From: Psammoneis japonica
Taxonomy: Eukaryota
Direction of reading: 5' to 3'
NCBI GenBank assembly: GCA_008632985.1
Contig: QPGO01000368.1
Span: 1-38,180 of the forward strand
Length of the DNA stretch: 38,180 bases
The notes below the pieces were generated by a model, which made no database searches, was not told the DNA's origin, and saw nothing but the letters and a program-made list of their open reading frames with translations. This document shows positions 10,897 to 38,180 of this stretch, piece by piece. The position numbers were made by a program, and so were the translations under genes. Each line of letters begins with the position of its first letter. Positions within the stretch are counted from its first letter, which is position 1.

Positions 10897-11466
10897 TGTC
10901 AGATGCCACACCCAGATTGCTTGCACTCCAGCTGTCATTTGTTGACAGGACATTGTTGTCAAAAGATCACATGAGAAGAGCAGGACACACAACTCCAACG
11001 GTCAAGCAGAGGTGTCAACAGAACAGCTTCAGACCTCTGTCAGATGCCACACCGAGATGGCTTGCACTCTGGCCATCATTTGTTGACAGGGCACTTTTGT
11101 CAAAAGATCACATGAGAAGAGCAGGACACACCACAACTCCAACTGTTAAGTGGAGGTGTTGACAAAACAGCTCAAGACCTCTGTCAGATGCCACACCCAG
11201 ACTGCTCTTGCACTTCAGCCATCATTTGTTGACAGGACATTCTTGTCTAAAAATCACATGAGAAGAGCATGACACACAACTCCAACTGTCAAGTGGAGGC
11301 ATTGACAGAACAGCTTCAGACCTCTGTCAGATGCCACACCCAGACTGCTTGCACTCCAGCCATCATTTGTTGACAGGACATTCTTGTCAAAAGATCACAT
11401 GAGAAGAGCAGGACACACAACTCCAACTGTCAAGTGGAGGCATTGACAGAACAGCTTCACACCTCT
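10897..11466. repeat. Tandem repeat, ~142 bp unit x4
   Basis: tgtcagatgccacac... starts at 10897, 11038, 11182 and 11325. Confidence 0.92.
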
Positions 11467-13517
11467 CAAATGCTGTGCCCCAGCAGCTTGGATTGTTTGC
11501 TTGCCATTGCTTGTTGACAGCATGTTGTTGGAAGTGTGCCTGGGAAGAGTGTGGGGTGCATGTCCAAGAAGTTCCAGGTGGAGGTTTCAAGGGGAGGGCC
11601 CTTGAGGCAGCAAAGGAGGGTCTGAATTTTGACTGCAGGTTTTGAAAGTTGCAGATTTTGGAATCATGATGTTGTGAGCAGCTTGAGACTTTGACCACTG
11701 CAGCTTTCAGATGGTGGAGCAACCTGGCCAGGTGACTTGACAAATTGTGGTTTGCCACAGGAACAAGGGCACTCAGCAACTGTGCTGTTTGACAACAGGT
11801 GATTTGTCTCAAGCAAGGCAGCCAGGCAAGCCTGAGTCACTGCTGTTTTTTTCTCTTCTTGCCATCTCTTGATTTGTGTCGCCACAACCCTTCTCAAAGT
11901 TGTCTTGATGATTGACAAAAACCAGCTCCTTGAGCACGACAAATGCAGCAACATCAAAAAACTTGTTTGGCAATGCCAGATGGTGTGAGAGACATCTGCA
12001 GCAGCTGCACATCCTCTCTCAGCTGCTCTCAACTTTGTTGCAGTCCGAGAATGTTCAGGTGGCATTGACAAGGAGACAACAAAAAAGGCTCTCCAGCACA
12101 CCCACCTCAGAAGCCCCAACTGTCAACTCCAGCTGCTCCCAGGGAAAAGACTCTCATTGGCTCAAATCAAGATTTTGTTTGAACAGGTTTGTGTCTGCGA
12201 GTGATGAGGCATTTTGGCCTGCTGACTTTGGAGAACAGCTGGAACAAAAGTGGACATGCGTGCACAGAAAACAAAGGAAGAGTTGAAGGAGGCCAATCAG
12301 GAGGGGCTCATTCTGGAGGCCAATTGCAGCAATGGGGGTGGCAATCAAGCAAAAAAGAAGGAATCAGAGGGTTGGAACACAAGAAAGGACCAGACAGGGC
12401 AAAAATTGGGAAAACGGATTTCAGGAGCAGAGATTGAGCAAGGACACTGACAAGTTCAATGAAGTTTGGTCAAAGGAGCCCTGGGTGCACATGGACAAGA
12501 CAGAAGAGTCCCAAGAAAATGATGGCAAACAGTTGCAAGCAGGCAACAATGTCAAGGATGACATGATCAAAAACCATGGATTTGTGGCTCCCGGAGACAC
12601 AACAACAAGCAGCCATTTAAATTGACATTTGGCGACAATTTGCAAAAATGAAAATGCAAAATCAACAGCAGACTGGGTGGATTGAAAAGGAAATGAAAAA
12701 ACTGTGGATGTGTTGGAGGGCACATAAAAAATGCAACTCAGCACCAGAAACATTCATGCAGCGGAACCTGCACATTTTCATCGAAATGCCCGAATTGTCA
12801 GCGGGGCACCCAAATTGTCAAAACAAAGAATGCCAGTGTGGCTCCCCCATTGAATGCAATGGAACCCCAAATGCAATGAACCCAAGATCTGCGCACAAAT
12901 TGAAAGATGAACCAACATTGATCAAGGCAATTGCCCCCTTTCGGGCAAATTGTTTCTCCCTCTGATGTCTTTTGTGCGGCCAGCCAGCGCTCCTGCGGCC
13001 AAACTCAAAGCTGGGCGTTGCATGCACTGCTCCAAGAAGCAGATCTGTTTTGGGTTACAAAGCCAGGCAAGTCAAACTCCAGCTTGTTCTCTCCTCCTTT
13101 GTGTGTGCTTCTTGTTCGTTTTTCAAAAGTGGCGAGTGTGTGCTCCTCATGTCTCTGCTTTTCCTCCCCAGCTGATCATTTTTTCAGAAGTTTTCAAATT
13201 TTTGACCCAAACAAGGGAGTTAGTTGGTGGCTCTTGTCAATCAGAACTCCAAAGTCCTTCTGCAAATCCCAAAGAGTTGTCTTGTCTCCTGGAGCTGTGG
13301 AGCGCATCTCACCCTGATCGTGTTGGTGGTGGTTTGTCTCGGAAGTGGAGCGGCCCACTTGGACAGCGAGAGACAGCCGTCCCATTCACCGCCCCGCCCC
13401 CACTCCCGGCTTGGGAGGTCCCCCGGCCCGAGCCCCGCGAGACGCGAGAGCGAGGAGGAGAGTCCTGTCTTCTGCCTGCCTGGAGGGAGCAGGAGTCTGC
13501 AAGCAAACGACAGCACC

Positions 13518-21273: not shown

Positions 21274-21682
21274 TTTAAAAAATAAGAAGTGAAGTTAGAA
21301 ACCAACCTTGCCAAAGCCAAAGAACGCTTCTTTGCAGTGGCGGCAGCTTGGAACACGAGCAAAAAATGAGCAGGTTTGCTCACCACGTTGCTCTCATGTA
21401 CAGTACAGTACCAGTACCGTACGGTAGATTCGTGACGTCCGCTTCAAGTTGCATCGTCACGACTCGTGGAAAACAGATCATTTCAGTCACGAATCGATTG
21501 TGACAAAGAGCGCGCACGACGATCTACGATAGGAAAACCAGAGCGGAATGAACATGATGAATGATGCATGATGCATGCCGCGTTGCATGTTGTATCTCGG
21601 ATCTCGGTATTACTGTATTTAGTCTGCGTCCTGCGTTGGAGATACTGTAGAGCAAGAGAGAGATTGATTGCATATTCCCATC

Positions 21683-23291
21683 ATGGCTGAGAAACAAAGC
21701 GGTGGTTGGAGGAGCTTTCTCGACAGTGTTGGCAAGTCGGTCGCCAGCAAAGCGGAGGAGGTTCGAATTGCAAAAGAAGCCAAGGCCGCTGGGCAGGTAT
21801 GGGACCCCGAGACGAAGCAGTGGTCTTTTTATTTCCTTGACCAGGAGTGGGAAGAATTGAAGGCGATGGACGAAGCAGCTTCGGATGCTGGTGCTGTTGT
21901 ATCAGAAGAGGAGGAACGCGAGGTGAAAGACCGCGAGTACTACGATCTTCTCAAGGTCTCGACCAACGCCAGTCAAGGCGACATCAAGAAGGCCTATTAC
22001 AAGGAAGCAAGAAAGGTACACCCCGACAAGAATCCCGACGACCCTGAAGCAGCGGCGAAATTCCAACAACTTGGGCATGCCTATCAGATACTTAGTAATG
22101 AACAGTCCCGTGCAGACTACGATAAGAACGGAAAGAAGGAAGGAAACGAGGGCGATGCCGCGCAAGATGTTGACCCTTTCGTCTTTTTCAATGTCATGTT
22201 TGGGTCTTCGTTGGTCGAGCCATACATTGGCGAGCTATGGATTGCCAATACAGCTGATAGCATGATGAAAGACGACGGGTTAGCTACAGCCGTGGAGGCG
22301 GAGAACATGACAGAGGAGGAAAAACAGGAGCTCATGGCGGCGAAAATCAAGGAAATGAAGCAAAAGGACGAAATCAAGCAACGCAAGAGGCAGGTCAAAT
22401 GCGCACAGAATTTGAGAAAAAGAATCGAGCCCTTTGTCGGCGTCCCTGCTGAAGAGAAGGAGAAGGCTACGCGAGAATTCGTCTTGGCGGCAAAGGAAGA
22501 AGCCTTGAAGATTACCGAGGGGGCATTTGGAGAAGTGTATGCCATAACGATTGGTACTGCTCTCCAACTCGGTGAGTGAAATACGACCAAGATGCCGGTT
22601 GCTTTGTCGTTGCGGCAATATTTCCGATTCTCTTATTCTATGCTTTACTCTTTTTTCAGACGCCGAAGAGTATCTCGGATTCCAAAAGACGTTCTTGGGG
22701 TTAGGTGGTCATTTCGCCAAGACACGAAAGAATGCCTCAGCTTTTAACAACAATATGAAACTGCTTGGTGCTGGCATCAAAGCTGCAGGCGCAGGAGCGA
22801 AAGCTATGCAACAAGCTGAAGACATGCAGCGGGGTATGGAAGAGGGCCAGGAGCTAGATCCAGAGAATGCTGCCGCCATGGAGGAAACTATGAATGAGTC
22901 GCTCCCAGCGTTCTTGGGTTTGGCTTGGGCGATCAACAAACGAGATATTCAACAAACCCTCAAGCAAGTGTGTAAGAAGCTCTTTGCGGATGCAGCCGTG
23001 CCCAAAGAAGCTCGTATTGAACGAGCGGAAGCTGTCCGCATCCTAGGTAGAGAGTTTACAACAATTGGAAGGATGGCTGAAAGTGCCAAATCCGAAGATG
23101 ACTTTCACCCAGAAGAGATTAAAACGCGCATGTCGGTTGCTGCGATGACGACAATGGCAAAAGCTCAAGGTCAGGAAGTGACCAAGGAAGACCAGGAGGA
23201 AATGATCAAGCAGGCAAAGCAGATGAGCGTTGATGCACAGGAAAAACCGCCCGACGAGCCGAAGACTGACCCTCAGACTAGAACAGTGTAA
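21683..23291 (+). CDS. DnaJ/Hsp40 with DnaJ-X domain (ATJ10/Djp1-like; intron 22572-22659)
   Basis: J domain YYDLL...IKKAYYKEARKVHPDKNP...FQQLGHAYQILS; FNVMFGSSLVEPYIGEL; DIQQTLKQVCKKL. The G|GTGAGT..TTTCAG intron restores the frame. Confidence 0.9.
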
Positions 23292-23347
23292 CTTCAATAC
23301 CTGTACGTATTAGACTACCTCGTACTTAACGCGTACCTGGTAGTATT

Positions 23348-24499
23348 CTAGTCTTTGCAAATTGCGTCCCCTCGCTCCTCACATTTGTCTCGCTTTACCC
23401 CACAATTCACGTGTTCTGATGAGCACTCCGGGGCCATAGCCTGGGCTACGCGACGAGCGACGGGAGAGAGAACGGTCGGATTCCGTTTCTCACCGACAGT
23501 CCAAAAAGACTCACAGGGCCATGCCGACAGGTCGTCCGTGGCTTTCAGCTCCTCCGCAATCACAGAATTCAGCACCGACTCCATACTCTCTGTGCCCGAT
23601 TCCCGGTCCACCTTGTTTAGCAGATCACTTGCATGATCAAGGATAGGCTCAACGGATCGCATTAATTCGTCTTCGTCCATATGCTTTCCTTCTTCTATAT
23701 CCTCCATCTCACCAGACTCCCTCTTTGAAAAACCTAGGAAGCCGCATAATCGCTCTTCAATTTCCCACGGGTCTTCAATGAGGCTCTCCATCGTAACAGT
23801 CAAGAGCGGGGTGTGTGCCGAAACATGGGACAAACGACAATGCCAGCGGACAACCTGTCGTGATACCTCCTTCATATCTTCCAAACCAGCATCATGCTTT
23901 TCACCCCCTTTAGACGACAATGCGAACTGCACCGTGTCGGCCGCAGCTAGACTCATTGGAAATGAAGCCACGCGAATGATCTTCTGAAATCCGTGGCTCT
24001 TTCCGTACCCATACGCTGGAACGTGACTCGAATTCAAAAGCACAATTTCAATATTGTGGTTCTGCTCTCCAGCGCTATGAAACTTTACAGCGGATCTGAC
24101 CCACGATGCGACGAAATCAGCGATCGACCCAGGAGGACTAAGTACGGCTACACGGTGGGTCGAGAGACCCACTGGTTCCTTACACTTGCTACCAGCTGTC
24201 GAGGGTTCACAACTTTTCAATGTCCGAAATAAATCATAAGTTTCGGTGTCATCTGGCCAGATATCAAATGGTGAAACTGGCAACAAATCGTTTGCATTGT
24301 CTTTTGAAACAACTGGACCCGGCATCCTTACTGCCGAGCGAGAAGCCCCATCAGATGCAGCTAGCATGGATCCAATCCAGAAAGACATTAATGCAATCCA
24401 AACAACAGCTGCGGCAACCGAAACAACTATTACGAGCGTTGGAGAGCCACCATGTTTCCGACGCCGTCGCAGACTGTAGCTCTTTTCACGGGACTTCAT
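23348..24499 (-). CDS. Hypothetical type II membrane protein (possibly sulfotransferase-like fold)
   Basis: 383 aa ORF with a basic N-terminus and a single TM helix. LTVTMESLIEDPWEIEERLCGFLG resembles the sulfotransferase v.yEdl..dP...l..FLG segment (weak). Confidence 0.6.
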   Translation of the reverse strand: MKSREKSYSLRRRRKHGGSPTLVIVVSVAAAVVWIALMSFWIGSMLAASDGASRSAVRMPGPVVSKDNANDLLPVSPFDIWPDDTETYDLFRTLKSCEPSTAGSKCKEPVGLSTHRVAVLSPPGSIADFVASWVRSAVKFHSAGEQNHNIEIVLLNSSHVPAYGYGKSHGFQKIIRVASFPMSLAAADTVQFALSSKGGEKHDAGLEDMKEVSRQVVRWHCRLSHVSAHTPLLTVTMESLIEDPWEIEERLCGFLGFSKRESGEMEDIEEGKHMDEDELMRSVEPILDHASDLLNKVDRESGTESMESVLNSVIAEELKATDDLSAWPCESFWTVGEKRNPTVLSPVARRVAQAMAPECSSEHVNCGVKRDKCEERGDAICKD

Positions 24500-24852
24500 A
24501 GCTGATGGGCTCAGCCCATGAGCGGCATCGTGAACTGTGAAACCCGAATTTTTCTTTTTTATCTATCTTTTCAGTGCAGTGACCGCCCGCCCGCCGACCG
24601 CATAGTACGACACGACCAGTTGGGAGCGAGGAAGCTTAAGTAGACCAACTGCTTCACTCTACTACTCGTCTTCTCTCTCTAGAGAGAGGGCCTTACACTA
24701 TCATGAGAGAGACTCTGTAAAGAGTGTAGCCTATTACCTATATTGCCTCGCTACATCAGACCAAGAAAGTCACCATAATATGCGCCCTCTCATTTTGATA
24801 GGAAAAGCTACGGAAAACATTTTGTCTCGCAGTCACCTTAGCTACTTCTAGT

Positions 24853-26091
24853 CTACTGGTACACAACCTGTTTGAGGGACTTTTCAAAAATTTCTAATCC
24901 CTCGTCCACTTCATTGTCGCTGACGTTTAGAGGAGGGATAAATCGAACGGTAGGATGAATGCTTGCAGGAAGCAGCAGCATTCCATTTTCGAAACAAGCT
25001 TGTGAAATGCTCTTGTTCGTGCCAGGCGGGGCATCCTTTTGAAGTTCCAATCCCACCATGCAGCCAGGACCACGCACATCACGAACAATGTCGTGCTCTT
25101 TTTGTAGAGCCTTCAAGCCACTCCAAAGCCTCATTCCCTGTTTCTTGGAGTTCTCCAGGAGTCCCTCTTCACGAATAACTTTTTGCGTGGCAATGGCAGC
25201 AGCACACGAAATAGCGTTGCCAGCATAAGTCCCTCCCATTGTGCCGGGAGCTTGCATGTCCGTCAACTCAGACCGTGCTGCGACGGCGCTCAGCGGAAAA
25301 CCAGAAGCTAATCCTTTTGCCATCACCAAAATATCTGGCGGACACTCCGGATGAAGATTTGACGCAAACAGCTCTCCAGTCCTTCCGAAACCTGTTTGAA
25401 CTTCATCCATAATAAGTTGAATGCCGTGTTTATCACAAATCTCACGAAGGCCCTTTAGAAACGGAGCAGGCGCTGGAACATAGCCGCCCTCGCCAAGTAC
25501 TGGCTCAATAATCACAGCGGCAACTTCCTCTGGTAAGGTCTGCGTCTTCAAGATCGTTTGTAGGTCGTCAAGGCAATTCTCTACCGTTTTGGAATGAAGC
25601 TCATAGGGAAAAGGCGCAACAAAGACGTTCGATGAAGTTGTCATCTTCTGTCTGTAAATTGTTGAGGACGTAGTTAGCGCCATTGTCAAAGATGTTCTTC
25701 CGTGATACCCGCCTTGAAAGACAATTACATTGGGGCGACCAGTGGCATACTTTGCTAGCTTGATAGAATTCTCTACTGCTTCGGCTCCCGTGGTTGAGTA
25801 AAATATTCTATCAAGCTGCGGATGAGGCATGACGCCGGGACGCATCAATTCTTCCGTGAGTTCAATCATTGGGGCGTGGTATCCGAGGTTGACTTGTCCA
25901 TGAACGAGATTGTCACATTGTTCCTTGGCAGCAGCAACTACTTTCGGGTGGTTGTTTCCCGTATTCGTGACTCCAATACCAGACACAAAATCTAAGAGAG
26001 TGCGGCCACATTGGGTGCTGACATAGGTTCCCGATGCTCTCTCCATCACAACCTCCGAGAGACGTCCAACTCCTCTGAACATGTGATTCAT
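24853..26091 (-). CDS. Class III PLP aminotransferase, 4-aminobutyrate aminotransferase (GabT)-like
   Basis: LDFVSGIGVTNTG, TGAEAVENSIK, YHGRT, EPVLGEGG, DEVQTGFGRTG, MAKGLASG, GGTYAGN and RFIPPL motifs. Confidence 0.9.
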   Translation of the reverse strand: MNHMFRGVGRLSEVVMERASGTYVSTQCGRTLLDFVSGIGVTNTGNNHPKVVAAAKEQCDNLVHGQVNLGYHAPMIELTEELMRPGVMPHPQLDRIFYSTTGAEAVENSIKLAKYATGRPNVIVFQGGYHGRTSLTMALTTSSTIYRQKMTTSSNVFVAPFPYELHSKTVENCLDDLQTILKTQTLPEEVAAVIIEPVLGEGGYVPAPAPFLKGLREICDKHGIQLIMDEVQTGFGRTGELFASNLHPECPPDILVMAKGLASGFPLSAVAARSELTDMQAPGTMGGTYAGNAISCAAAIATQKVIREEGLLENSKKQGMRLWSGLKALQKEHDIVRDVRGPGCMVGLELQKDAPPGTNKSISQACFENGMLLLPASIHPTVRFIPPLNVSDNEVDEGLEIFEKSLKQVVYQ

Positions 26092-28141
26092 TTTTGAAAC
26101 TCAGGCAATTTATCGCTTCCTTCTTGGCCTGAAGCTTAATCAAGAATGTTTCGGAGGCCTTGCCGAAAAGTAAGAAGGGGAAAGAGCAAGAGGAATGTCT
26201 ATCGTGTCAAATCTTGTGTGTCGAAGATCGGAGACGAACGAACACAACGCTGAAGTTTCGGTTTTCGAGGTGGACGACGCAACCGACCGTGCGCGCTCAA
26301 TCGTGCGTAATTGAGTCGTGAATCACGACCACCAGTCGCCAGTCGCCCGGTGGGCTCGAGTGAGTTTGTGATACGATCGTTCCTTGGCCTTTCTATCTAT
26401 TCTATCGATTCCCGAGGCGCAAGCATATTTAATTTCTTCCTTCTGACCATCTCATCAGGACGAGGAAGCCTATAAAAAGCTTAATGTGAAGGAACCTGGC
26501 TCCATGTTCTTTTCATCATGTCTTTCATTGGAAAGGTCTCAGCTCGGGGCAATTTCAAGAGCTACGGAGATTCAACATTTTCGCGCTCATTACATAGGAC
26601 TTTCAAACTTCTCACTCATGTAATCCGAAAGAGCATTGCAGGCAAGTGCTTCAAACAGAGACACAACAAATCTGCATCAAGGCTAGCACAAACCGAAAGA
26701 AGAAACAGTGAGAATGGACACCACAACACATTGAACAGCCGCCAACAATAAACTACGGCGGCATTCGACAAAGCAAGATCTCAGATATCATCCCCATGGT
26801 ACACTGTGCTGCCTGATGTTGTAAGACCGTTCCATGCAAGTCGAGCCCGCAGCTCTAAGGGACGTCCACCAGCAAAACACGACTCGCCGTTCTCAGGGTG
26901 CGTCAACAGGCGAATGAGCTACAGAAATCGTTTCCCATTCTCATGCTGACATTTGCCCGCGATTCGACAAATCAAGATACCAGAGCATATCCCTAATTTA
27001 CATTGTTGCATGCCTTTCCCAACAGGCTTCAACATACTTGCAAGGATGTCACAGCAAGCTCGGCACTGGTCATACCAGAAGCAAGCCACACGAATCGAGG
27101 GAAAACGTCACCGAGGCTCCATTAACCAATGGAAGGGGATATGCATGCCCTCCTTCACTCTTGAAAGAGCACAAGAAAGCAAAGCACAAGATGGAAAAAG
27201 GCTGCCAAGCTAGACATGCATCGGCGTGAGCCGCAGAAACAAGAGACTTGAACGCCTCCCACGTGGTAGATCTTGGGCCGCAATCACAGAGGAGAAGGAA
27301 TCTCTCCAACGTGGCTTCCCGCAATACCGACAGCACATGCCTCGATCTAAATCCTCATGATGTTGCGCATTTCTCCCACTGAAAAGTGATCACAATACGC
27401 AGCACCATGGGAACGAGTCGTTTCTGCTGAAAAGGCTCCAACCAAAACATTTCCAACTAACAAGACCTTCTTCAAGGTGGGTATAACACGGTTAGGGTTG
27501 GGGCTTCCCGCTTGAACAGCCAGATTGCGCCCAAAGGCCATATCCGAGCCATTAAGACAGGCACTCGAGGGTGACTTGACCGGCTTTCCCAGCTACGTGT
27601 GACTCTGTCTCGTGGTGTACCGATCATATCAATCATCATTGATCTCGAATGGCCGTCAAAAAAACTTTCGCATCTGAATAGTCCAACAGCGACAAATCAT
27701 TGTTGACGTTGACATACCTGACTTTCGGATCGTCATCTCCGGTGCAAGCCTTTACCGGTGACTAGTTCGATCTCTGCCAGCGTATGGAGCTGGCTGATGA
27801 TGATTCTGCTGCATCGTGCATCGCCGTCACACTTTGCATTTTTGCTTCCGCTAAGTTCTAGCAAAGTCGTCTTGAAGATTCAATCTGACATCGAATTTCG
27901 CTTTAGACGTGGCTATTGACGTCTATCATGTCGCACGTGCAGAAAGGGTAGCAACGGTAATACAAGTGAAAGTGAAGGGCGAGGCCATGGTATGTAGCGA
28001 GTTTGCGAGCGGATTCTCCAACTTTCCAAAATTTGTCTGAAAATGGCAGAAATTGACCGAATTCAGGCGGAATTGGAATGATCGATTTTATTTTACGTAT
28101 TGCCCATTTTGTTAGATTCGGAACTGCTGTCATAGTACAAA

Positions 28142-29364
28142 ATGACGATGGCAACGATGTCTCGAAGCGATTGCGGCGTCGGCGTCATGATGCTTTTCTG
28201 TTTTGTGCTGTTGCTGTCAGTGGGTGTCAAGGCAGTGCTGAGGGAAGAGGATCGTTTAGCAGAGTACTACAAGCGAGGCTATACGTGGCCACCAAAAGAA
28301 TTCGTACCCAACACACCGGGATGGGCAAAGCTGATGCAGCGAAGGCTTGCGCAGGTCCAAGAAATTAAAGACAGAGGAAACCGCTATGACGGCTGGGTAG
28401 AGACAGTGACGGCTGCCTACACTCTTCACAATTTTACCGAGAATGGATGGGCACTGACGCGACCCTCGCAGGAGCTGGTGGACACCTTGCGAAAAGCCAT
28501 ACGAGATGGGGTCGCCACGGCAGGATACGAAGCCGACCTCGAAGCCATTGATGGACCACCAGCTCGCTTTATTTCTCGGAACGACTTAACAAATCGGGTG
28601 CTGAAAGAGCTCCTTCCTATTCACGAGGCCTGGGCCCACCAGAAGCTGGTTCCGTATCTCGCATACGGATTTCGATTGTACCAGAACAACTCCAGATTGC
28701 TCATGCATGTTGACAAGACTTCAACACACATTATTTCATGCATTCTCCATATCGATTCGAGCGATGATGCAGAACCGTGGGTAAGTGACGAACCAGTCAT
28801 TTTTCCACAAACGTATTTACCCCCTCTCACGTTCTCGTTTGCTTGATCTTGTTCTCTACGAGCACAGCCAATCGTCATTGAGGACCTGCAAGGGAACACC
28901 AATGAAGTAATTTTGAAATCAGGCGACATGCTGCTGTACGAATCTGCAAAGTGCTTTCATGGACGACCGCACAGGTTCAAAGGCAGTTGGTATTCTTCCG
29001 TATTCGTACACTATTATCCAGTCGGGTGGTTGGTGAGTAGCACTTGCTTGCATATCTGTCTCTTCTGGAGAAGCTCTTTAGTCATGTCGAAAACTTGTCT
29101 CGCTCATCTTGCCCGTAGGATCATGACCATGACCGCGAGGGTCACTACGGCGTTCCTCCCATTTGGGCACAAGATCCGACAGAGGAACCCAAGTACCCGC
29201 CGCTCGAGGTTCGTGGCACGACCATGTATGAACCAACGTGTGAGCCTGATTATTGGTGTGCATTGGAAAACGCTGTAAAGTGGACCGGACCCGGCGAGAA
29301 AGACTACATTATCACCACAAATGGAAAGTTCCCTCTTTATGAAAGTGAAGCTCCGGAACTGTAG
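28142..29364 (+). CDS. Secretory-pathway 2OG-Fe(II) dioxygenase-like protein (exons 28142-28780, 28868-29032, 29119-29364)
   Basis: Signal peptide; YGFRLY...MHVD (HxD)...CFHGRP (distal His)...FVHY. Two GT..AG introns keep the frame. The C-terminus is APEL-stop. Confidence 0.72.
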
Positions 29365-29759
29365 GACAGGACTATGTTTACTCAAACATGTGGGCTTTGA
29401 GATAGTTTAGTTCCTAGATAGTAAATACCAACCAAGTCTCAGAGAGAAAAAGAAACTAGGTCGTGTTCCACAGTGATGGTATCTTTCTCTCTCGAGGGAG
29501 AAAAGGACGAGTTGTTGAATGAATCCGTCTGTGTCTCCCCCCTGCCCTGACCCCAAACGGACCGGAGACAGACGGGTAAGACGAAGTCGAGGTTTATTGG
29601 GGCTGACAAAATGGACCAAATTCGCAAGCGGTCTTTTGAAAAATAGAATGAATGCAATGACTTTCGCATGGTTCGGGGTTTCATAAAAATTACTTTGTTT
29701 ACTAACATGCAATATATTCCGAATTTTATATTGCCTTAGTCATTTTTTGGTTGGGATGC

Positions 29760-31470
29760 CATTGACAGTTGCTTTTGTCTTGTTTTGCACCCTCAATCAT
29801 GCACTGTGTGTGACACAGCCCTTTTTTCCGTTGAGATGATGGATGCGGTGATTTTGGGCTTTTTGCGCACTCGCTCGCTTTCAAACCAGCGCAAACAACT
29901 CACTCAACACCCTTGTTTCTACGCCTGACAAGGACAATCACATGATGCAAGCCCAGATTGTTGATGAATTGTCAAAATTAAAAGTCATTGTCTGATGATT
30001 GCAACCTTCAGTTGTGAATGCCTTGCACAGTCATTTGCAGCACCAGAGGAGCCTGGCAGCTCTCTTCTTGGAGCCCTCTCTTGTGCTTCTGAAGTGACCA
30101 AGGAACTCACTTGATGCCAATGGCATGCCCTTCATTTTCCTGCCATTGAACTTCCAACTTCTTCCTGAGACAAAGTCCCTTTCTTGTTGTCACTCCAGAC
30201 AGAACCACACAAACCCAGCTGTCTGTGTGGTCAAAGTTGTTGTTGGACAACAACCAGGCTCTCAATTTTGCACCCCCTGGAGCTTGTGCACAGTTGCTGC
30301 GTTGTTGCACAAAACTGGGAACTGGGTCAATTGCTTCCTCTGACTGATTCTTGGTTTTTTTTGTGAATGAAACCCATCACAGGGACAGGAAAGTTGACAA
30401 CACAGCATGTCTCTCTCCTTGGGGCCACACAAGAAAACAGCTCTCATCCTCCTGCCTTTTCCTCATGCCTCAAGACAATCGACTCAACTTGCAAAACACA
30501 GGCTGACCTCACCCAATGACCATCAATCTTCATCAACTCCAAATCATCCAAAGAAACACATTCCTTCAGCTCAACTCCCTGAAAAAAGCCAGCAGTGCCA
30601 CTGGCCTCCTTTTTCTCCACATGTTCTCATCGAGGTTCATTGTCACAGGGCGGCCATGCAAAGCTTCAGAAGTGAGCCCACATGCCTTGATTCATTTCCG
30701 GCTCATTTGACGTGAGCATCTGGACAAACTGCAAACAAAATGTCCTTGGACAGTTCATCTTGAAAATCCACATGCTTGCATGACCTGGTGTTCCATTTTT
30801 TCCACTTGAGGTTCTTGCTTGCTCAGAGGACAATGGCGTGGGTTGGAGGTGACTGTGCAAGAGATTTTGAGCATGTTCCCTCTAGCACCTTCTTGAAAAT
30901 GCCGTTGTTGACTGCATTCCTGTCAAGACCAGTGGCAACAGCGCAGGTTGCATTGCTTGGGATGTCACTTTCCATGAGGAAAAGATTGCTGGCAGATCAA
31001 GGTTTTCAACTTTCAGATGTTTCCACAAAAGTCAGTCAGTGCAAAAATGATGAAAATCCAGAGGAGAATGGCTGGCGCCTGTCAGGACTCATCTGATCAC
31101 AATGAACAATGAAAACACCACCAAATCATGTCTTCAGCTTTGTCAGTTCATCAAGAGTTGGGCAACAAAGCACAAAGAAGAGATGACAAAAGTGCAAGAC
31201 AGAGCGTGTTGCTGATGGTGCATTGTGCAACATTGTGCACTCTCCACCTGCTGCACCCAACCATTGTGGGTCACTGTCAAGTTGATTGGAGAGGTGTGTG
31301 ATGAAGATGACACTGATGAAACATTTCATGAAACTTGCGCAGATGTCGAGAAGCCATGATTTGCTGGTGGCTGGCGAGTGTCTCCAAATGAAACAAAAGA
31401 GCACCGCGGACATCCTTCTCATTGCTTGACATTTTGACAATTGCAATGTCATTGTGTTGTTTGAAGCATC
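29760..31470 (-). mobile_element. Decayed Helitron-like element with PIF1 helicase remnants (30107-30990)
   Basis: Frameshifted minus-strand fragments in the correct order: DIPSNATCAVATGLDRNAVNNGIF, LLKLC/HGRPV...EASGT, QFPVLCNNAATVHKLQG (motif V) and WVCVVLSGVTTRKGLCLRKKL (motif VI, YVxLSRV). The block is TpA-depleted. Confidence 0.8.
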
Positions 31471-31681
31471 TGATGTTTCATCTTAAATGTTTGTAAATAA
31501 AGACAACGAGACACAGCCGTTCAGCGAAGCGTCCAATCTGGACTTCAGATTGTGACCCGCAAAAAGAAATGACCGACGAACCATGCAGGATCATCGCATC
31601 GATCGACGTACTGACCGTGCGTCTTTCCGTCATCATTATTCTGTCTGTCCGTGCCCTGTGTGTTATTTGCCTCCGACATTT

Positions 31682-31689
31682 TTTGGCGC
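31682..31689 (+). promoter_or_regulatory. E2F consensus site (TTTGGCGC), adjacent to ACGCGT
   Basis: Exact TTTSSCGC match about 140 bp upstream of the Cdt1-like ATG. Confidence 0.45.
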
Positions 31690-31825
31690 GACGCGTTATC
31701 TCGCTTCTCGCTTTCCTCCCGTCACCTCGCAATAGCCAACAGACAACATTTCATCCATTGCACCCTCCAGCCTCTTTTTCGATTGTGCCATACAGTTATA
31801 TTCGCATTGAATCTCTCGATTAAGA

Positions 31826-33476
31826 ATGTCCTCTCGTTCCAAAATCTCGAGAAACAAACGACAGCGCGTCGGTAGAGATGCTCGCGCTGCGGATGCCGAA
31901 TCGATTCCAATTCCGTCCTTCACGTCCACGGTTTCTTCGTCCTCTCCTTCTTCGCATGGATCCAATGACCTGGTCGAAGTTCGAACGAGCATATCACAAC
32001 TCGTCAAAGCAGAAGGAGCCTTGCAAGTGCACCTTATGACACAGCGTCGTATGAAGCGAATCGCCTCGTTGAACCACGTGCCGCTGCAAGATTTTTACGT
32101 GATGGCCAGAAAGCTCAAGCTCGCAGAAACAGCGCAAGAGGGAAGGCCAAAGACTCAAAATACGGACACTTTTTCCAAGGAAGAGCGTCTCTTGTGCGAT
32201 ATGGTGTGTATTGGAACGCCGTCGTTGTATCGTTTGTTTCAACAAGATGAGAGCGATGCTTTATCGAAAAAGTCGAAGTCAAGTTGGTGCTTGGAGCTTG
32301 TGCCCTTTGATGGAAAACGTATGGAGGAACTCAAGCGTCTAGCAAGTCGACCCCAGGTCCATGAAGATGAAAAAGGGTTCATTGCCAACGCAATAGAATC
32401 CCACCGAGAAGCGTCGCAGCCAAAACCTCACGAGCCGTCCAATCAGAAGTCTTCCGCCCGCACTGCGAAACTAGGAGACGAGCCCACCATTCTACCGGGA
32501 ATGACGTTGGAAGAGCGCGTACAAGCTCGTGCAGATGTAAGGCTCACTCGTCAGAAACAGCAGCAGCAAGTCAATCAAGAAGGCGCCGTGGACAAGACGG
32601 TACTTCTCGCAATGGCGGATGCCATTTGGTCTCATACGAGACATCTTCTGAATCGTCAAGATCAGCTTGGTTCTTCCACACGAAGCATCTTTCAGTCAGA
32701 TCAGAAAGCCTCCAAGCACCGGTCCCATCAAGAACGCAGCTGCATCATGACGCTCGAAGACGTTATGAAAGCCTTTTCTCGAACTCAGAGCAAAGACTCC
32801 AAGACGAAAAAGAAGCAAATGATCAAAGCTTTACAAGAATTGGAACGTGTGGTGCCGGGTTGGATTCAAATTCAAGATGATCAACAGGAACAGTCCGGCC
32901 GTTTGAGCATGCATGCCACAGTATGGATCAAGCCTCAAGAGTATCAGGCTATCCGATTTCAGATCTCTGGCACGGACGGATCGAACGTACCAACCCGTAA
33001 GCCGCCCATTGCACTCGGTCACTCGCCCAAGTCTGCCTCTGTCCATCGCAGGGCTACCACTCTCGCCGACGGTCCTCGTCTGGAAGAAATCCCTGTACCA
33101 CGCGGAGTGGCCAGAGTGTCGCTCTCTCCATCCATAGACGCGAAACGGCGATTCAAGGCTGAAAAAGCCCCTGAAGTGTTTCCACGAGCTCACAAGAGAT
33201 CCCGAACATTGGTTTCAACAGCACTCTCGTCTGAAATGCATGCCGAAGGAACTAGCAGTCGTGCTGGTCCTCATGTAAGTGGTACCAAGCGTCCAGCTGC
33301 GGGTGAGATTCTTCGCGGTATGCACTCCCAGAAAGCGTCGTGGCCTTCGCATCAACCGAAATCTCATTCTTTCGGACGCCGATCATGATGGAGTCGAATG
33401 CATTCAGCCAATCGGCAATAGTCCTCGTGGGCTCAAGATGCTCTTTTCAAGATTGAAGGAAGGACATCGAATTTAG
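31826..33476 (+). CDS. Cdt1-like replication licensing factor (C-terminal winged-helix similarity); 3' end frame-disrupted
   Basis: 520 aa ORF with TLEERVQAR (cf. Cdt1 LxERIRxKE) and ALQELERVVPGWIQI (cf. Cdt1_C LxxLxxxxPxW). An overlapping frame 33279-33476 gives a more protein-like tail (LRINRNLILSDAD...PRGLKMLF). Confidence 0.55.
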
Positions 33477-33549
33477 TGTTATGGCTAGCAAGACATTAGT
33501 TAGCTTTTAGCTACTACAATTAGTCAGTGCCAGTACTTGTACTCGTAGT

Positions 33550-34779
33550 TTAGTTCGAATTCAATATACGACGCGACTGGAGTCGCCGTTGATATAATTT
33601 AACATACGCCACCCGCAGCAACACGATTATCTGTTCATATGTGAGGAAAGTGAAGGCTGCCGTCAAGACTGTTTGAAGCAGTTTTGCTTCCAATCCTCGA
33701 AATAAACCAGCAACACCCCCTTGTTTGAAGAGTTTGCGAAAACAATCCCATGTACCATTGTAAACCATGAGAGTTCTATCTTTGGATTCTGCGTCCTGCT
33801 CTTTATGCTTTTGCTGTATTCTCAGCAGGACTTGAGCAAGCTGTAGTGGATAAGTCGCAACCGTGGCTGCAGCCTTTGCAGTGGCTCCCAGAAGGAATGC
33901 TTCGACAGGAGTGAGCCCCAACACTGTTGCTTGCTGATTTTGTCTCGGTGTTATGCGTCCCTGAAGGCTTCGAGAGATACGGTTGGCTTTCAATTGCTCG
34001 TAAAGAAAAAATTGAATTACAGGATTGGACACGAGCAAGAGGGAGGCCCATGTTCCATTCCACAAGCGAGATTTTCCTTCAACTCTTAGAATGGAATGTA
34101 CTTCTTGAAACAAGGAAGGTGTCTTGGACTCGCCTTGAACAAAACGTAAGTTCGCCACCCACAACGGATTGGTAATTAGAACATTGGCAATACCGGCTAG
34201 ACAGGAAGCGAACAACGACCTCGAGAGTGACGGGGTTTTCTTGCCTATCGAACTGGCGACGGGGAAGAGGTATCGCTTTGCCACAGCGTGCGCGTAAAAG
34301 AAAACGAAGTTGGATGCTGCCATGGTAGTAATTACAGGTGACACCCCTCTGTACAGTTCACCTTGATTTTTTAATCCAACAAGACAAGATATCAACTCAC
34401 TCCTGTTTGCTGCCGCGGACCTGTCTTCAATTGACTGCGAATGCGACGACATGGACCACGAAGCCTCGTCTTCATCGGCGGCCTCGCTTCGTTTGCGATC
34501 TTTCTGTTCCGCAAATTGAACCCAAGAATCGTCTTTTTGCTGAACACAATCCAATTTATTGTTAGATTCGTCATCACTTGATGATTCGATGTCGTCTGAA
34601 TGCTTCTCTGGTTGTTGTGCTGCTGCCGCCGACTGCATTTCGATTCGCGCCCGTTCCAACGGGAAGAACAATAACAGCGCCAAGGCCGATCCCAAGGAGC
34701 CTCCAACTGCATGAAAAATGGGTGGAAGGGCTACAGGCGCATCGCTGGGGGTTGCATATGATGCGGTTCTTGCCGCCAT
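33550..34779 (-). CDS. Mitochondrial carrier family protein, peroxisomal PMP34/SLC25A17-like
   Basis: Three carrier repeats (FPLERAR, NPLWVAN, YPLQLAQ) plus SNFVFFY, LLLVSNPVIQF and KLLQTVLTAAFTFLTYE typical of PMP34. True start is most likely MAART at 34779, not 35472. Confidence 0.88.
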   Translation of the reverse strand: MAARTASYATPSDAPVALPPIFHAVGGSLGSALALLLFFPLERARIEMQSAAAAQQPEKHSDDIESSSDDESNNKLDCVQQKDDSWVQFAEQKDRKRSEAADEDEASWSMSSHSQSIEDRSAAANRSELISCLVGLKNQGELYRGVSPVITTMAASNFVFFYAHAVAKRYLFPVASSIGKKTPSLSRSLFASCLAGIANVLITNPLWVANLRFVQGESKTPSLFQEVHSILRVEGKSRLWNGTWASLLLVSNPVIQFFLYEQLKANRISRSLQGRITPRQNQQATVLGLTPVEAFLLGATAKAAATVATYPLQLAQVLLRIQQKHKEQDAESKDRTLMVYNGTWDCFRKLFKQGGVAGLFRGLEAKLLQTVLTAAFTFLTYEQIIVLLRVAYVKLYQRRLQSRRILNSN

Positions 34780-34920
34780 GGCGTCCGATGTTACTTCTAC
34801 AAGCACATGTAACCTTACAGTAAAAGAGAAATGAGCAGTTCGGAATTTGCGGCGAGCGCGCGCTTCATGCGAAAAGCTCGGGCGCCGCGGGGGGGGGGCG
34901 GCCGCCCGTCCGTCCCGAAA

Positions 34921-36290
34921 CCAAGCATTTTGATTTCCAGGAGGAACACAACGCTCAAGTCTCGTTCCGACATCAGCGCTGATGGTTGGTGAGCTGTTTG
35001 GGACATGCCAAGTGCAAGCCACTTTCCAACTTTGCAGGCAGAGAGTAGTTTGAAGTTGTTGCCCCACAACCACAACCTTCGTTGGCAGCTCTGGGTTTGT
35101 GCAACATTGCTTTTCACACCAGCAGGATTCATCACTGCCTCCAGCAATGATTTGGTTGCACCGTTGCCGACATGGCATGAGGGAGCTGTCTGCATGAGCT
35201 TCTTTGCTTGTCACATGAACTTTCCTGCAGCATGCAAACAAGAAAAAATTCAGTGTTTGGAGAGATGTGGCACCCCACCTTTGCTGTGATCCCACTGTTG
35301 CTGAGAGCAGATTCATCATTTTGTGCATTGAACAGGTGGAGGGCAGTGTCTGTCCTTTTCTCAAGACTGCTGGCATGCATGTGAAGCAGCAACACAAGTT
35401 GTGGGCTTGGCAAGAAAGCCCCTCATGATGAGAGCTCACTTTTTCCAATCCTGTCAAACTGGAAAAGAGCAAAAGACGGTCAATGTCAACAAAGACTTTG
35501 GGTTGGTCAATTTGGCACTGGATTGCTCAGATCAGGCTTGCCAGAATGCCACCTTTTGCTGCATTTCTTCTGTGGTGTGATCCTTCATCTTCTTTGTTGT
35601 TCTTGCCACACGTCTCTTGCAGACCATGCACTTTTTGCAACAAGCCCTCCCTTTGTCTCGATCCATGCCCAAAAGTTCACGCAACAGACCATCCGTCTTT
35701 TGTGCAAGGACATTCAAGGCTGCTTGGTGCATTTGCAACTTCTGTCAACAGCTGGACTCAGCCCACACAAGCCCTGCATGTGTGGAGACCCTCGCCATGC
35801 ATGCCCTGAGGGATGCCACTGATTGAATGAGATGTGCCGGCTCCACTCAAGGCAGCAGCCTCACAAGCAATGGCACCCAAACAAGAGCTTTCCATCAAGT
35901 TTTCCTGCACTCTTCCAATCCATCATGGAGTGAGCTTTCTGATCAAGGCATTGGTTGAGTGGCTCTCCCCATGGCATGGATGGGTGCTTGGCATTGCATT
36001 CCATGCAAAAGGCAGCCAAAGTCGCCGACTTCTCATGAACAGACTTTGCTTCTTCACTGTTTGCACACTTCCACAGTGCTCAGCAACACAAGCAATCTCC
36101 AATGCAAAGTGATGGGGTAACTTCACCTCCTCTTCTGCATCCACAACAGATGGATCCTCCTTTCCAAATTGGCGTGCTTCAAGGACTCGCTTTGCATCAT
36201 TTGCGCGGATGCCACCAAGTGTCAAGACAGACTGAGTGGCTGCAGACACTGTGGTTGATTGGGTTTGGGCGTCCATGCTGACAGTTGATG
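34921..36290. other. Third TpA-depleted decayed block (element of unknown type)
   Basis: Manual tally of 2 TA versus about 21 CG in 1370 bp; no recognisable intact gene. Confidence 0.75.
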
Positions 36291-36377
36291 AGATAGATCC
36301 GAGGATGCTTCACTTTTCCAACGCTACAAAGGACACCTCTGCGACAGAAAAGAGATGTTAAGCTTCTCTATATTTTT

Positions 36378-38180
36378 CTAGGACGATCTTGTGATGACAC
36401 TGTTGAATGCGGCTTGGCTGAGGGTGACTCTTCCAGTAGATTGCTGTCGTTTTTTGCCCCGTTTCTGCTTCTCCAAGAGCTTCTTCTTTCTCGTCACGTC
36501 ACCTCCACCTACGGATTTAGAGCCACCGGTAATCAAAACGTTTTTGCGATAAGCTTGAATACGAGCACTTGCAATAATTCGCCCCCCATTTTCCGCAGCC
36601 TGAATCACAGTTACGAACTGCTGGCGCGGCAACGTTTCTCTGAGTTTTCACAGACAACTCTTCCTTCTGTCTGTGCAACGCTGACATGACAAACAAACGA
36701 AAGAGGCTCTACGATTTCTCCGTTCAACATGATATCAACCTTGGACAAATTTGCTTCTTGCAGCGGTGGGTCAGCCTCCCACGTATCAAGACTTCCGTAG
36801 CCTGCTGTGACATTCTTCAGATCGTTATCAAAATTCGTGACCACTTCACCCCAAGGCATGATTGCTTGGAAACCCACGTATCCTCGTCCATGGGGTGACT
36901 TGACAGGTCCGCCCTCGTTTACGTTTCACTAGGCTCCATTATATTGCCGNGCATGCTCCATGGGGGCGACGATCCGCACATGCACCACAGGTTCTTGGAC
37001 TGTAAATCTAGTCCCTGGTTTGGGCCAATCCGTTAGGTTTTCTACAACGTATGTGTAAGGTTCTGTTATTCTGTTGTTCTTGCTGGGGAAACATTNTTGA
37101 TGGTATATGGAACTTTCGGAGGGGTTACAACTGCATCGAGATTGAATTCATCAAGAAGTCGTTGACGGAATACTTCTACATGCAATAAGCCTTGAAACCC
37201 GACTCGTAGACCAGGCCGAGAAAGGGTCCGCCGCTGTTCCATCGTGATTTCCGGTGGATGACGTCTTGGAGACTTCCAAACCTGTATCATTCAACGCCAG
37301 CTTATCAACCGCGTGGGCAAGCTCTTCAAAGCCATCAGCTTCGGTTGGATGAACCGATGCGTACAAACTGATACCTGTGCCTTTCTTGTAGTTTCATTGT
37401 CGATAAGTAGATGTGAAGGTAAGGCAATTCCCACATGCTGTCGTCGTGTCAAGATGGTACCCGGCATAGCTTGTCTTGGGTCTCGCAGTCCAAAGCGAAC
37501 GTAACCCATTGGCCTCGACTCAGCTTTTTCGTTCGGAAGTTACTTTGGCAGCAGTATCCCGACTTCCTGCACAGAAAAAATGACCGGGTACTGTCTCCAT
37601 CAGTTCCATCTTGATTGTTACAAATTGCAATTTTGTCCCCCTCCTCCATGGGACCCTGAGAGGATTTNGCACGACACACTCCACACCACGTAGCGGGTCA
37701 AAATAGGAGTCTACAACTTGCGCTACAAGCTGGTCGTCATTCTCAAGCGATAACGCCGTCGGTGAAGGTACGTTTCGACAAACAGCATCCAATACCTTGG
37801 CTATCCCTATAACGGTTCCGAGCACTTGTCCACAAGATATCATCAGGTCATCCCAAGACAACCACTCAGACACTGTCAAGGCAACCATGAATGGGCCGAG
37901 CAAGATTCAAATCTACTTTTGTCAACGCCACCAATAGTTTGAGCTGCGCCTGACGTTGTTCGAGCTGACGTTTCTGAATGGCCATTACCTTTTCGTGAAC
38001 ATTCCATGTTGAGCTTGAATACCCTGAGTGGCATCCAGGAGCAAAATTGCACCCTGAACGAATGAAAGTGACCGCGAGACTTCGGTTCCGAAATCGCTGT
38101 GGCCTGGGGTGTCCCACCATGTTGAGCAACAACACACCAGAGGGCCCACAGCAGAAGGGTGCTTGTAAAGCATGGTGGCA
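36378..38180 (-). CDS. GUF1: Translation factor GUF1/LepA (EF-4), 5' end beyond window; many apparent frameshifts
   Basis: Fragments [62 protein letters not shown] and [20 protein letters not shown] occur in LepA order. N bases nearby suggest poor sequence quality. Confidence 0.85.

What the first reader, a model, noticed from the sequence alone, without database searches (positions are those of the whole stretch)
30107..30990. Helitron PIF1 relic gives the direction of mutation: conserved Tyr codons now Cys
Seen: minus-strand codons TGT (30211-30209) in WVCVVLSGV, TGT (30172-30170) in KGLCLRK, TGC (30660-30658) in LLKLC and TGC (30945-30943) in ATCAVAT. Known: PIF1 motif VI is YVxLSR, so the first Cys stands where a conserved Tyr belongs; from my recollection of related Helitron helicases the other three sites are also usually Tyr. 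Each change is TA>TG. In 30901-31440 I count 0 TA and 9 CG. This independently polarises the change as loss of TA, and shows it acts on a rolling-circle DNA element as well as a retroelement. That argues against editing of an RNA intermediate.
Basis: partly seen in the sequence, partly recalled or inferred. Interest (0 to 1): 0.75.

Follow-up and report, generated by a model that had tools for sequence, protein, structure and literature searches.

The report
TA-erasing mutation of a diatom Helitron
A dead rolling-circle transposon in a diatom genome has had almost every TA step rewritten to TG or CA after it landed, the mark of a DNA-level, transposon-targeted mutation process whose enzyme is unknown and whose only published match found is a 2026 preprint on an unrelated alga.

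Summary
Confirmed. The region is the helicase remnant of a ~2.0-kb non-autonomous Helitron2-type element (window 29524-31537, minus strand, 30+ copies) in a diatom genome. At the motif-VI site relatives carry Tyr (196 of 199), and the genome's own copies carry TGT, CAT or, once, TAT: TpA became TpG or CpA. Two of the four sites are polarised only by outgroups, and CpG decay is a second process in this relic. Younger elements separate the two. In 21 Helitron copies TpA transitions run at 0.395 per base, against 0.060 (CpG) and 0.006 (other A/T). In 20 copia LTR pairs, 134 of 179 differences are TA versus TG/CA. Both strands are hit equally, without strand runs, so the change is chromosomal and post-insertion, not RNA editing. 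In partly hit copia copies it fills a 5' domain that also shows 4-fold more CpG decay. Best mechanism (inferred): an adenine-editing enzyme on silenced chromatin. The signature matches Bigelowiella natans TpA hypermutation (2026 preprint); I found no diatom report. This scan found the same process earlier on other pieces of this genome, Helitrons included. Four of 29 metagenomic relatives also show it.

The parts
29524..31537 (-). Non-autonomous Helitron2/HLE2-type element (internal-deletion derivative), about 2.0 kb
   Evidence: 55 matches in G000, 30 fetched; copies share the same 5' start and 3' end with unrelated flanks; contigs of run X1 have loose ends at 31537
30152..30978 (-). Relic of the C-terminal half of the RepHel PIF1 helicase, in four frame pieces (30978-30658, 30626-30441, 30450-30274, 30244-30152)
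   Evidence: Profile of relatives hits three minus frames, E 1e-19 to 9e-7; 144 of 235 relatives hit it by tblastn at E<=0.01
30209..30211 (-). Motif-VI Tyr now Cys (TGT)
   Evidence: Tyr in 196 of 199 relatives; copies CAT 14, TGT 12, TAT 1, other 2
30170..30172 (-). Cys (TGT) at a Phe/Tyr column; ancestral TAT shown by copies
   Evidence: Relatives F94 Y82 H10 of 199; copies TGT 18, CAT 4, TAT 3, other 3
30658..30660 (-). Cys (TGC) at a Tyr column; polarised by outgroup only
   Evidence: Tyr 159 of 220; copies TGC 19, TGT 2, no CAY or TAY of 25
30943..30945 (-). Cys (TGC) at a Tyr-modal column; Arg origin not excluded by DNA
   Evidence: Tyr 140 of 231; copies TGY 15, CAY 5, CGT 1
30227..30229 (-). 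His (CAC) at a Tyr column: the opposite-strand outcome TA>CA
   Evidence: Column 70% Tyr; copies TGC 17, CAC 8, CGC 1, other 3
30516..30518 (-). His (CAT) where close relatives have Tyr (Phe or His in some)
   Evidence: Pairwise alignments; copies CAY 16, TGY 9, other 2
29740..31483 (.). TpA- and CpG-depleted core
   Evidence: 3 TA against 127 expected, 23 CG against 92
29524..29739 (-). 3' tail of the element that escaped: keeps 12 TA and 11 CG
   Evidence: At these 12 TA sites other copies read TG 73, CA 64, TA 8, other 55 of 200; a contig of spliced run X2 bridges the neighbouring host gene into the tail (29118-29677)
29525..29575 (-). 3' terminal stem-loop
   Evidence: -9.6 kcal/mol with DNA parameters, no shuffle control; a 9-bp inverted match to the 5' subterminal 31508-31516

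Best explanation
SHOWN (confidence about 0.95): after insertion, transposon DNA in this diatom genome undergoes clean A:T>G:C transitions at TpA. Each site resolves to TpG or CpA, independently in each copy, on either strand, as single events. The process runs far ahead of CpG decay, makes no stop codons, and removes Tyr codons, including the catalytic Tyr of the Helitron Rep domain. The window relic is an old end-state that has gone through this and then through CpG decay. SHOWN in young copia copies: the change fills a contiguous domain, usually from the 5' half, with a border inside the element; CpG decay is raised in the same domain; the edited A prefers 5'-T (near-absolute) and 3'-C/T. 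INFERRED: the domain is silenced, CpG-methylated chromatin. A host adenine-editing activity, most likely a TadA/ADAT2-fold deaminase acting distributively on chromosomal DNA (A to hypoxanthine, read as G), is recruited or left unrepaired there over many cell divisions and disables mobile elements without breaking reading frames.
For: Helitron family A, 21 copies about 95% identical: per-base transitions at TpA 2321 of 5879, CpG 339 of 5678, other A/T 169 of 28322, other G/C 62 of 23063; 6 transversions at TpA; TG share 0.47-0.63 in every copy; no correlation between neighbouring sites beyond 10 bp. At 16 columns that are >=80% Tyr in outgroups, four full-length frames carry Cys 23, His 21, Tyr 7, other 6, while Phe, Trp, His, Cys, Asp and Gly columns are kept; both Rep motif-3 Tyr are Cys or His. 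Twenty copia LTR pairs: 134 TA-vs-TG/CA, 12 TG/CA, 2 mixed, 15 CpG, 11 other transitions, 5 transversions. Young copia family against two natural TA-rich copies: TA 2550, TG 1070, CA 808, CG 9, other 27; conversion per 500 bp from 5' to 3' 43, 67, 75, 67, 68, 61, 46, 35, 38, 29, 29, 12, 10%; neighbour concordance at null. Fitted sense/antisense 0.96; +1 base C 4.4, T 3.9, G 1.6, A 1. Within 9 copies holding both zones, hit versus unhit: CpG decay OR 4.15, non-CpG G/C OR 0.98, off-motif A>G after C OR 3.4 (p 0.005), after A 2.15 (p 0.04), after G 1.76 (n.s.). An engineered TadA deaminase on genomic DNA gives 91-95% A>G/T>C with TA preference (PMC13225742, passages). The genome holds an ADAT2-like and a TadA-like gene.
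Against: No enzyme is shown. The deaminase inventory is ordinary: 9 PF00383 matches, 5 PF14437 and 4 PF02137 matches at 2 loci, with no expanded or unusual family seen (family names from motifs, recalled). Methylation was not measured; CpG decay is only a proxy. TadA-type enzymes need single-stranded substrate (recalled), which sits awkwardly with silent chromatin and no strand runs. A>G and T>C cannot be told apart from sequence. The two context fits differ (+1 T 4.9 > C 2.4 and sense/antisense 1.16 in Helitron A, where TA sites were inferred and so ascertainment-biased). One copy (L173) has the 3' LTR hit and the 5' LTR spared, and another copia family spares the 5' LTR, so 5'-first is not a rule. 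Copies are not fully independent.
Confidence: 0.5

Rival explanations
1. Error-prone repair synthesis: a polymerase-eta-like enzyme fills gaps made during mismatch or excision repair in methylated transposon DNA and misinserts G opposite T at TA steps.
For: Pol eta is error-prone at WA/TW motifs after mismatch excision (PMC6423074, passages). CpG decay, a source of T:G mismatches, is raised 4-fold in the same zones.
Against: WA predicts AA near TA. Here A>G after A is 0.009-0.019 per base against about 0.40 after T, and is no higher than after C in copia. Transversions are 22 of 1718 changes at TA. Patch synthesis predicts same-strand runs; none were found. The review notes a quarter of in-vitro Pol eta errors at C/G; non-CpG G/C is not raised (OR 0.98). 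I did not search G000 for Pol eta.
Confidence: 0.17
2. A base mark at TpA, then chemistry: adenine methylation at TpA followed by deamination, or a thymine modification (oxidised or alkylated T pairing with G) laid on silenced DNA.
For: TpA is palindromic like CpG. Strand symmetry, single events and domain-wide saturation fit a duplex-DNA writer. The genome has many C5-methyltransferase-domain genes (27 matches). Sequence cannot say which base is attacked.
Against: No TpA-specific writer is known to me (recall). ApT outside TA contexts is not depleted, so ordinary ApT 6mA is not the cause. Weak off-motif A>G with the same 3'-pyrimidine taste looks like enzyme preference. I did not search for 6mA or thymine-modifying enzymes.
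Confidence: 0.25
3. Editing of a mobile intermediate (RNA, cDNA or Helitron single-stranded circle) before insertion.
For: The four reported changes are all sense-strand A>G. Helitron A shows a small sense excess (1.16).
Against: TA>CA is nearly as common as TA>TG in every copy, and context-corrected strand ratio is 0.96. The two LTRs of one insertion, with intact 5-bp target duplications, differ strongly (TA 3 vs 17, 4 vs 18, 6 vs 19). Repeated DNMT-like gene copies are hit as well.
Confidence: 0.03
4. CpG decay alone, from Arg (CGY) codons, plus ordinary TpA avoidance.
For: The relic is CpG-poor. Of 124 TG/CA-polymorphic columns, 56 keep a CG in some copy and only 19 a TA; 47 keep neither and 2 both. 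The allelic contig differs in the relic at 13 CpG and 0 TpA sites.
Against: Younger families lose TA while keeping about 88-95% of CpG. The outgroup residue is Tyr, not Arg. TA is seen directly in one LTR of a pair.
Confidence: 0.01
5. Base-calling or assembly artefact at modified bases.
For: Modified DNA can be miscalled by long-read platforms (recalled). The library type of the runs is not on record.
Against: Contigs of run X1 cover all 30 bins; of 13 listed differences inside the element only 3 make a TA. The allelic contig shares TG/CA states except one swap. The same signature occurs in 4 of 29 metagenome loci. X1 may be the source sample.
Confidence: 0.01

Closest known systems
TpA hypermutation of integrated NCLDV and virophage DNA in Bigelowiella natans (Mettrop et al., bioRxiv 10.64898/2026.01.13.699255; read parts 1-3 of 5: abstract, introduction, results, discussion; supplements closed)
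   Same: A>G/T>C transitions on TpA, giving TpG and CpA; confined to foreign DNA; opposite to the usual AT bias; ADAT2-like deaminase proposed but not shown; TpA-poor CDS there are enriched in RT and DDE domains.
   Different: That is a rhizarian, measured de novo in mutation-accumulation lines on two viral regions (one single-copy). Here it is a diatom, seen as a historical record on Helitron and copia elements, near saturation, with flanking-base preferences, strand symmetry, domain structure and overlap with CpG decay that the parts I read do not report. Shared enzyme or origin untested.
Repeat-induced point mutation (RIP) of ascomycetes
   Same: Mutational inactivation confined to mobile or repeated DNA, dinucleotide-specific, after insertion. 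Diatoms have DNMT4 genes related to RID (PMC9998398, passages).
   Different: RIP is C>T at CpA and creates TpA and stops (PMC2621366, listing only). This destroys TpA and keeps frames open. Identical LTRs of one element have unequal fates, unlike pairing-triggered RIP (recalled).
TadA8e / ABE8e genome-wide off-target deamination (PMC13225742, passages)
   Same: 91-95% A>G/T>C with TA preference on chromosomal DNA.
   Different: An engineered enzyme, scattered through the genome; no natural DNA-acting TadA/ADAT is shown here.
Helitron2 / HLE2 rolling-circle transposons (PMC11417382, passages)
   Same: PIF1-type helicase homology; start at TT, 3' stem-loop, short inverted match between ends; related full-length family carries Helitron_like_N, PIF1 and DUF6570.
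   Different: The window copy lacks the Rep domain and is frameshifted; it is a non-autonomous relic.

Membership tests
Helitron-like elements (HLE2/Helitron2) | RepHel-type PIF1 helicase | tested here: met
   Profile hits E 1e-19 to 9e-7; most of the 105 full-length relatives carry PF14214 and PF05970
Helitron-like elements (HLE2/Helitron2) | HUH Rep domain (and DUF6570) in the element | tested here: inconclusive
   Absent from the relic, as expected of an internal-deletion derivative; no autonomous member of this family was found among fetched copies. Present in family A, which is only 30-67% identical to the relic over short pieces
Helitron-like elements (HLE2/Helitron2) | HLE2 ends: short inverted repeats, 3' stem-loop, T-T insertion, no target duplication | tested here: inconclusive
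   Starts at TT; stem-loop -9.6 kcal/mol and a 9-bp inverted match, both without shuffle control; TT follows the 3' end in the window and about 9 of 21 copies; family A ends in TT in 4 of 4. No empty site examined
Canonical Helitron (HLE1) | 5' TC and 3' CTRR | tested here: not met
   Copies start TT and end GGA
B. natans-type TpA hypermutation | Almost exclusively A>G/T>C transitions | tested here: met
   1696 transitions and 22 transversions at TA in hit zones; 2321 and 6 in Helitron A
B. natans-type TpA hypermutation | Restricted to TpA, yielding TpG and CpA | tested here: met
   0.40 per base after T against 0.003-0.019 after other bases; weak off-motif excess exists
B. natans-type TpA hypermutation | Confined to foreign or mobile DNA | tested here: met
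   Host genes TA o/e 0.58, host PIF1 with normal Tyr; repeated DNMT-like gene copies are also hit
B. natans-type TpA hypermutation | About 1000-fold raised de novo rate, on in only some lines | not testable with these tools
   Needs mutation accumulation; near-identical copies in graded states suggest recent activity
B. natans-type TpA hypermutation | Acts on single-copy integrated viral DNA | not tested
   No viral insertion was looked for
Fungal RIP | C:G>T:A at CpA, raising TpA | tested here: not met
   C>T before A 17 of 9525; TpA is lost
Fungal RIP | Triggered by pairing, both repeat copies hit | tested here: inconclusive
   LTR pairs unequal, 5' fewer TA in 10 of 13 unequal pairs (Wilcoxon p 0.03); TA-intact copies coexist with hit ones; LTRs are short (347 bp)
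ADAR/ADAT editing of an RNA intermediate | A>G on the transcript strand only | tested here: not met
   Sense/antisense 0.96; TG share 0.47-0.63

The most novel reading that the evidence does not exclude
Diatoms, and probably other SAR algae, carry an undescribed genome-defence pathway in which a natural DNA adenine-editing enzyme is coupled to CpG-methylated chromatin. It nucleates on the 5' half of newly inserted transposons, spreads as a domain and kills them by stripping tyrosines without making stops. It would be the same ancient system as in Bigelowiella and a natural counterpart of adenine base editors.
Probability: 0.35. Interest if true: 0.92.

Novelty: new variant of a known kind. Interest (0 to 1): 0.72.

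Why it matters
No natural enzyme that edits adenine in chromosomal DNA as a defence has been established in the papers I found; the only matching signature is one 2026 preprint on viral insertions in a rhizarian. A second, distant lineage with dozens of dated copies in graded states makes the question testable. It gives a motif (T-A-pyrimidine), a spatial rule (domains overlapping CpG decay), an order (TpA long before CpG) and an outcome (catalytic Tyr lost, frames open). It also warns annotators: long open frames here are dead elements, and divergence-based ages of such elements are inflated.

Tried and rejected
Pfam on the relic's nine frame pieces and on the two other depleted blocks found no transposon family. 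No TA-intact copy of Helitron family A appeared among 42 matches (best non-self identity 97%), nor of the window family among 30 fetched. Strand-coordinated runs: none in either data set; a weak 2-10 bp correlation in Helitron A (0.088 against null 0.005 +/- 0.039) was not repeated in copia. Spill-over into flanks: TA in the adjacent 150 bp falls with 5' LTR conversion (Spearman -0.85, n 16), but five such flanks are TA-poor throughout, and the one flank searched is itself repetitive with no empty allele, so direction is unresolved. A simple '3' pyrimidine only' rule failed: TA>CA occurs in TTAT. Deaminase inventory gave nothing unusual. No RNA holder listed; run X2 has no cover over the core, which is no evidence on expression. 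Prasinoderma's atypical spectrum (PMC11884799, passages) is not this process. Low-Tyr relatives P0205, P0147, P0204 and P0115 have few or no Cys/His at Tyr columns and were not counted as hit. Of 80 metagenome loci only the 29 close RepHel matches were scored by match; the other 51 were scored whole and none had TA o/e under 0.3.

Full report
OBSERVATION. The four codons and the 0 TA / 9 CG count are correct. The window alternates between host genes (TA o/e 0.58, CG o/e 0.95) and blocks that have lost both TA and CG: about 3520-13400, 29740-31483 and 35000-36200. In the finding's block TA is 3 against 127 expected and CG 23 against 92. The host is a diatom by inference: 24 silicon-transporter matches up to 697 bits, compact genes, and a weak atlas lead to Bacillariophyta. 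The window is G000:C370.

WHAT THE ELEMENT IS. The block has 55 matches in G000, of which 30 were fetched. Copies share ends at window 31537 and about 29524, giving a 2.0-kb minus-strand element. Pfam misses its broken frames. I therefore took a full-length Helitron from the same genome (family A; Helitron_like_N, PIF1, DUF6570 in two of three frames scanned) and collected 235 outside relatives. A profile of these hits the three minus frames at E 1e-19, 9e-10 and 9e-7. The ends (TT start, 3' stem-loop, short inverted match, no TC or CTRR) resemble HLE2 as defined in PMC11417382 (passages), without shuffle controls. It is a non-autonomous Helitron2-type relic.

THE FOUR SITES. Relatives have Tyr 196 of 199 at 30211; Phe 94, Tyr 82, His 10 of 199 at 30172; Tyr 159 of 220 at 30660; Tyr 140 of 231 at 30945. 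The three relatives with Cys at the first site are themselves Tyr-poor. Copies in G000 read CAT 14, TGT 12, TAT 1 at 30211 and TGT 18, CAT 4, TAT 3 at 30172, so both descend from TAT. At 30660 and 30945 no copy keeps TA, and one reads CGT at 30945, so these rest on outgroups. The relic is also eroded elsewhere: 25 of 67 conserved non-Tyr columns differ. Its 124 TG/CA-polymorphic columns (controls 20, 22, 8) include 56 with a surviving CG and 19 with a surviving TA, so CpG decay is a real second process. The element's last 215 bp keep 12 TA; other copies read TG 73, CA 64, TA 8, other 55 there, some in poorly aligned A/T runs. A contig of run X2, which skips GT..AG introns, bridges the neighbouring gene into this tail. 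One case only, but it fits escape by lying in active chromatin.

SEPARATING TA LOSS FROM CpG DECAY. A PIF1 search gave 56 matches; of 30 fetched, the host PIF1 had normal Tyr, and 29 had 0-7 Tyr in frames of 377-1014 aa, most with CpG retained. In 21 family-A copies (median identity 94.8%), transitions per base are 0.395 at TpA, 0.060 at CpG, 0.006 at other A/T and 0.003 at other G/C, with 6 transversions at TpA. The TA sites were inferred from the copies, which biases towards two-way sites; the inferred state has 30 Tyr in 1012 codons, like outside relatives. Independently of that inference, 16 outgroup-conserved Tyr columns hold Cys 23, His 21, Tyr 7, other 6 in four natural frames; Phe, Trp, His, Cys, Asp and Gly columns are kept, Arg 100 of 108; both Tyr of Rep motif 3 are Cys or His. 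TA loss cannot create stops, so 1700-1870-aa frames stay open while dead.

CHROMOSOMAL, AFTER INSERTION, BOTH STRANDS. Of 150 copia RT matches listed, 30 were fetched; TA o/e ranges from 0.09 to 0.83 while CG o/e is 0.73 or more. In 20 LTR pairs, 134 of 179 differences are TA against TG or CA, 12 are TG against CA, 2 mixed, 15 CpG, 11 other transitions and 5 transversions. In one young family (18 copies compared with two natural TA-rich copies; 42 matches listed), TA sites read TA 2550, TG 1070, CA 808, CG 9, other 27. The apparent TG excess is context: the fitted strand ratio is 0.96 (LRT 0.46), with +1 preferences C 4.4, T 3.9, G 1.6, A 1 and a mild -2 A preference. Helitron A gave T 4.9, C 2.4 and ratio 1.16. 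Neighbouring events are not strand-coordinated. This excludes RNA editing and makes editing of a single-stranded intermediate unlikely.

DOMAIN STRUCTURE. Conversion in that family averages 61-75% from 0.5 to 3 kb and falls to 10-12% in the last kilobase. Six copies are nearly saturated in the 5' half and almost untouched at the 3' end. LTRs flanked by intact target duplications differ, for example 3 vs 17, 4 vs 18 and 6 vs 19 TA, with one reversed case, 17 vs 6; another family spares its 5' LTR. Within the 9 copies that have both zones, CpG decay is higher in hit zones (123 of 3512 vs 11 of 1838, OR 4.15) and non-CpG G/C change is not (OR 0.98). Off-motif A>G is weakly raised after C and A. 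Three lightly hit copies show no 5'/3' CpG difference (4 of 1120 vs 6 of 906). Spill-over into flanks is unresolved. In the old relic the allelic contig differs at 13 CpG and 0 TpA sites: TA is exhausted and CpG decay continues.

BREADTH AND ARTEFACT. Four of 29 close metagenomic RepHel loci (L181, L192, L196, L200) have TA o/e of 0.11 or less, Tyr columns mostly or partly Cys/His, and no more than 65% nucleotide identity to the G000 loci held; their hosts are unknown. Six of 235 proteins (P0001, P0126, P0138, P0179, P0188, P0227) show several Tyr>Cys/His at conserved columns; whether any come from this species was not checked. Contigs of run X1 cover the stretch, and 3 of 13 listed differences in the element make a TA, so a base-calling artefact is unlikely; X1 may be the source sample.

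MECHANISM. Shown: target, direction, timing, strand symmetry, context and domain. Inferred: the domain is methylated, silent chromatin (DNMT5-dependent methylation silences young transposons in Phaeodactylum: PMC9998398, abstract and passages). The chemistry is most likely adenine deamination, because the product is a pure transition with T >> A, C > G at -1, and a TadA-derived enzyme on DNA gives the same class of change (PMC13225742, passages). Pol eta (PMC6423074, passages) fits the overlap with CpG decay but not the TA/AA selectivity, purity or lack of runs. A TpA base mark remains open. The genome's deaminases look ordinary. I give the deaminase-on-silenced-chromatin model 0.5, a base mark 0.25 and Pol eta 0.17.

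KNOWN AND NEW. The signature equals that reported for viral insertions in B. natans (bioRxiv 10.64898/2026.01.13.699255; parts 1-3 of 5 read; supplements closed). It works like RIP but fails RIP's defining chemistry. Searches for a diatom or transposon report found only that preprint. The library lacks most subscription papers, I did not open diatom genome papers, and supplements may bear on this. The scan's own notes (AI, unchecked) report the same process on many other pieces of this genome, including Helitrons, and list none in another genome. A search of those notes for the gradient and strand terms together returned nothing. I reached this reading before consulting them.

VERDICT. New variant of a recently reported kind; interest 0.72.

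Noticed in passing
window 1-940 (minus strand): 5' part of a copia element, 82-100% amino-acid identity to L134/L137/L139/L140; TA low (4 in the first 500 bp) with CG intact (36): the early state of the same process.
   Followed up: partly
window 3520-13400 and 35000-36200: Blocks lacking both TA and CG, with no Pfam hit in six frames; a tandem-repeat stretch near 9800-11400 is visible in the translations; identity unknown.
   Followed up: partly
L159, L160, L161, L165, L168 (G000 C301, C297, C28): Repeated copies of a C5-methyltransferase-domain gene, 91-96% identical among C297/C301 copies, with TA o/e 0.00-0.05 and almost no Tyr, while other DNMT-domain loci are normal (0.46-0.69). Either cargo of a mobile element or amplified host genes that became targets.
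   Followed up: partly
window 21545-38180 vs G000:C89 (L081, L082): Allelic or duplicated contig, 98.5% identical over 16.7 kb; both depleted blocks are shared, with CpG differences dominating in them.
   Followed up: yes
window 28779-28867 and 29031-29118: Run X2, labelled 'DNA?', skips two GT..AG introns of the host gene, so it behaves as spliced RNA; one contig runs into the Helitron's TA-retaining tail.
   Followed up: partly
L181, L192, L196, L200: Metagenomic Helitron loci with the same TA loss; L181 has Cys/His at 7 of 8 Tyr columns; hosts unknown.
   Followed up: partly
L066:2146-4437: Host PIF1 gene with N-terminal HRDC domains and normal Tyr content.
   Followed up: no
G000:C38:226311-230342: Three silicon-transporter domains in one 1511-aa open frame.
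   Followed up: no
L061-L064, upstream of the RepHel frame: Family-A Helitrons carry internal direct repeats of about 120-250 bp near their 5' end and end in a shared sequence finishing in TT.
   Followed up: no
L032/L067, L033, L035-L036 group: Further Helitron families in G000, also nearly Tyr-free with CpG retained.
   Followed up: partly
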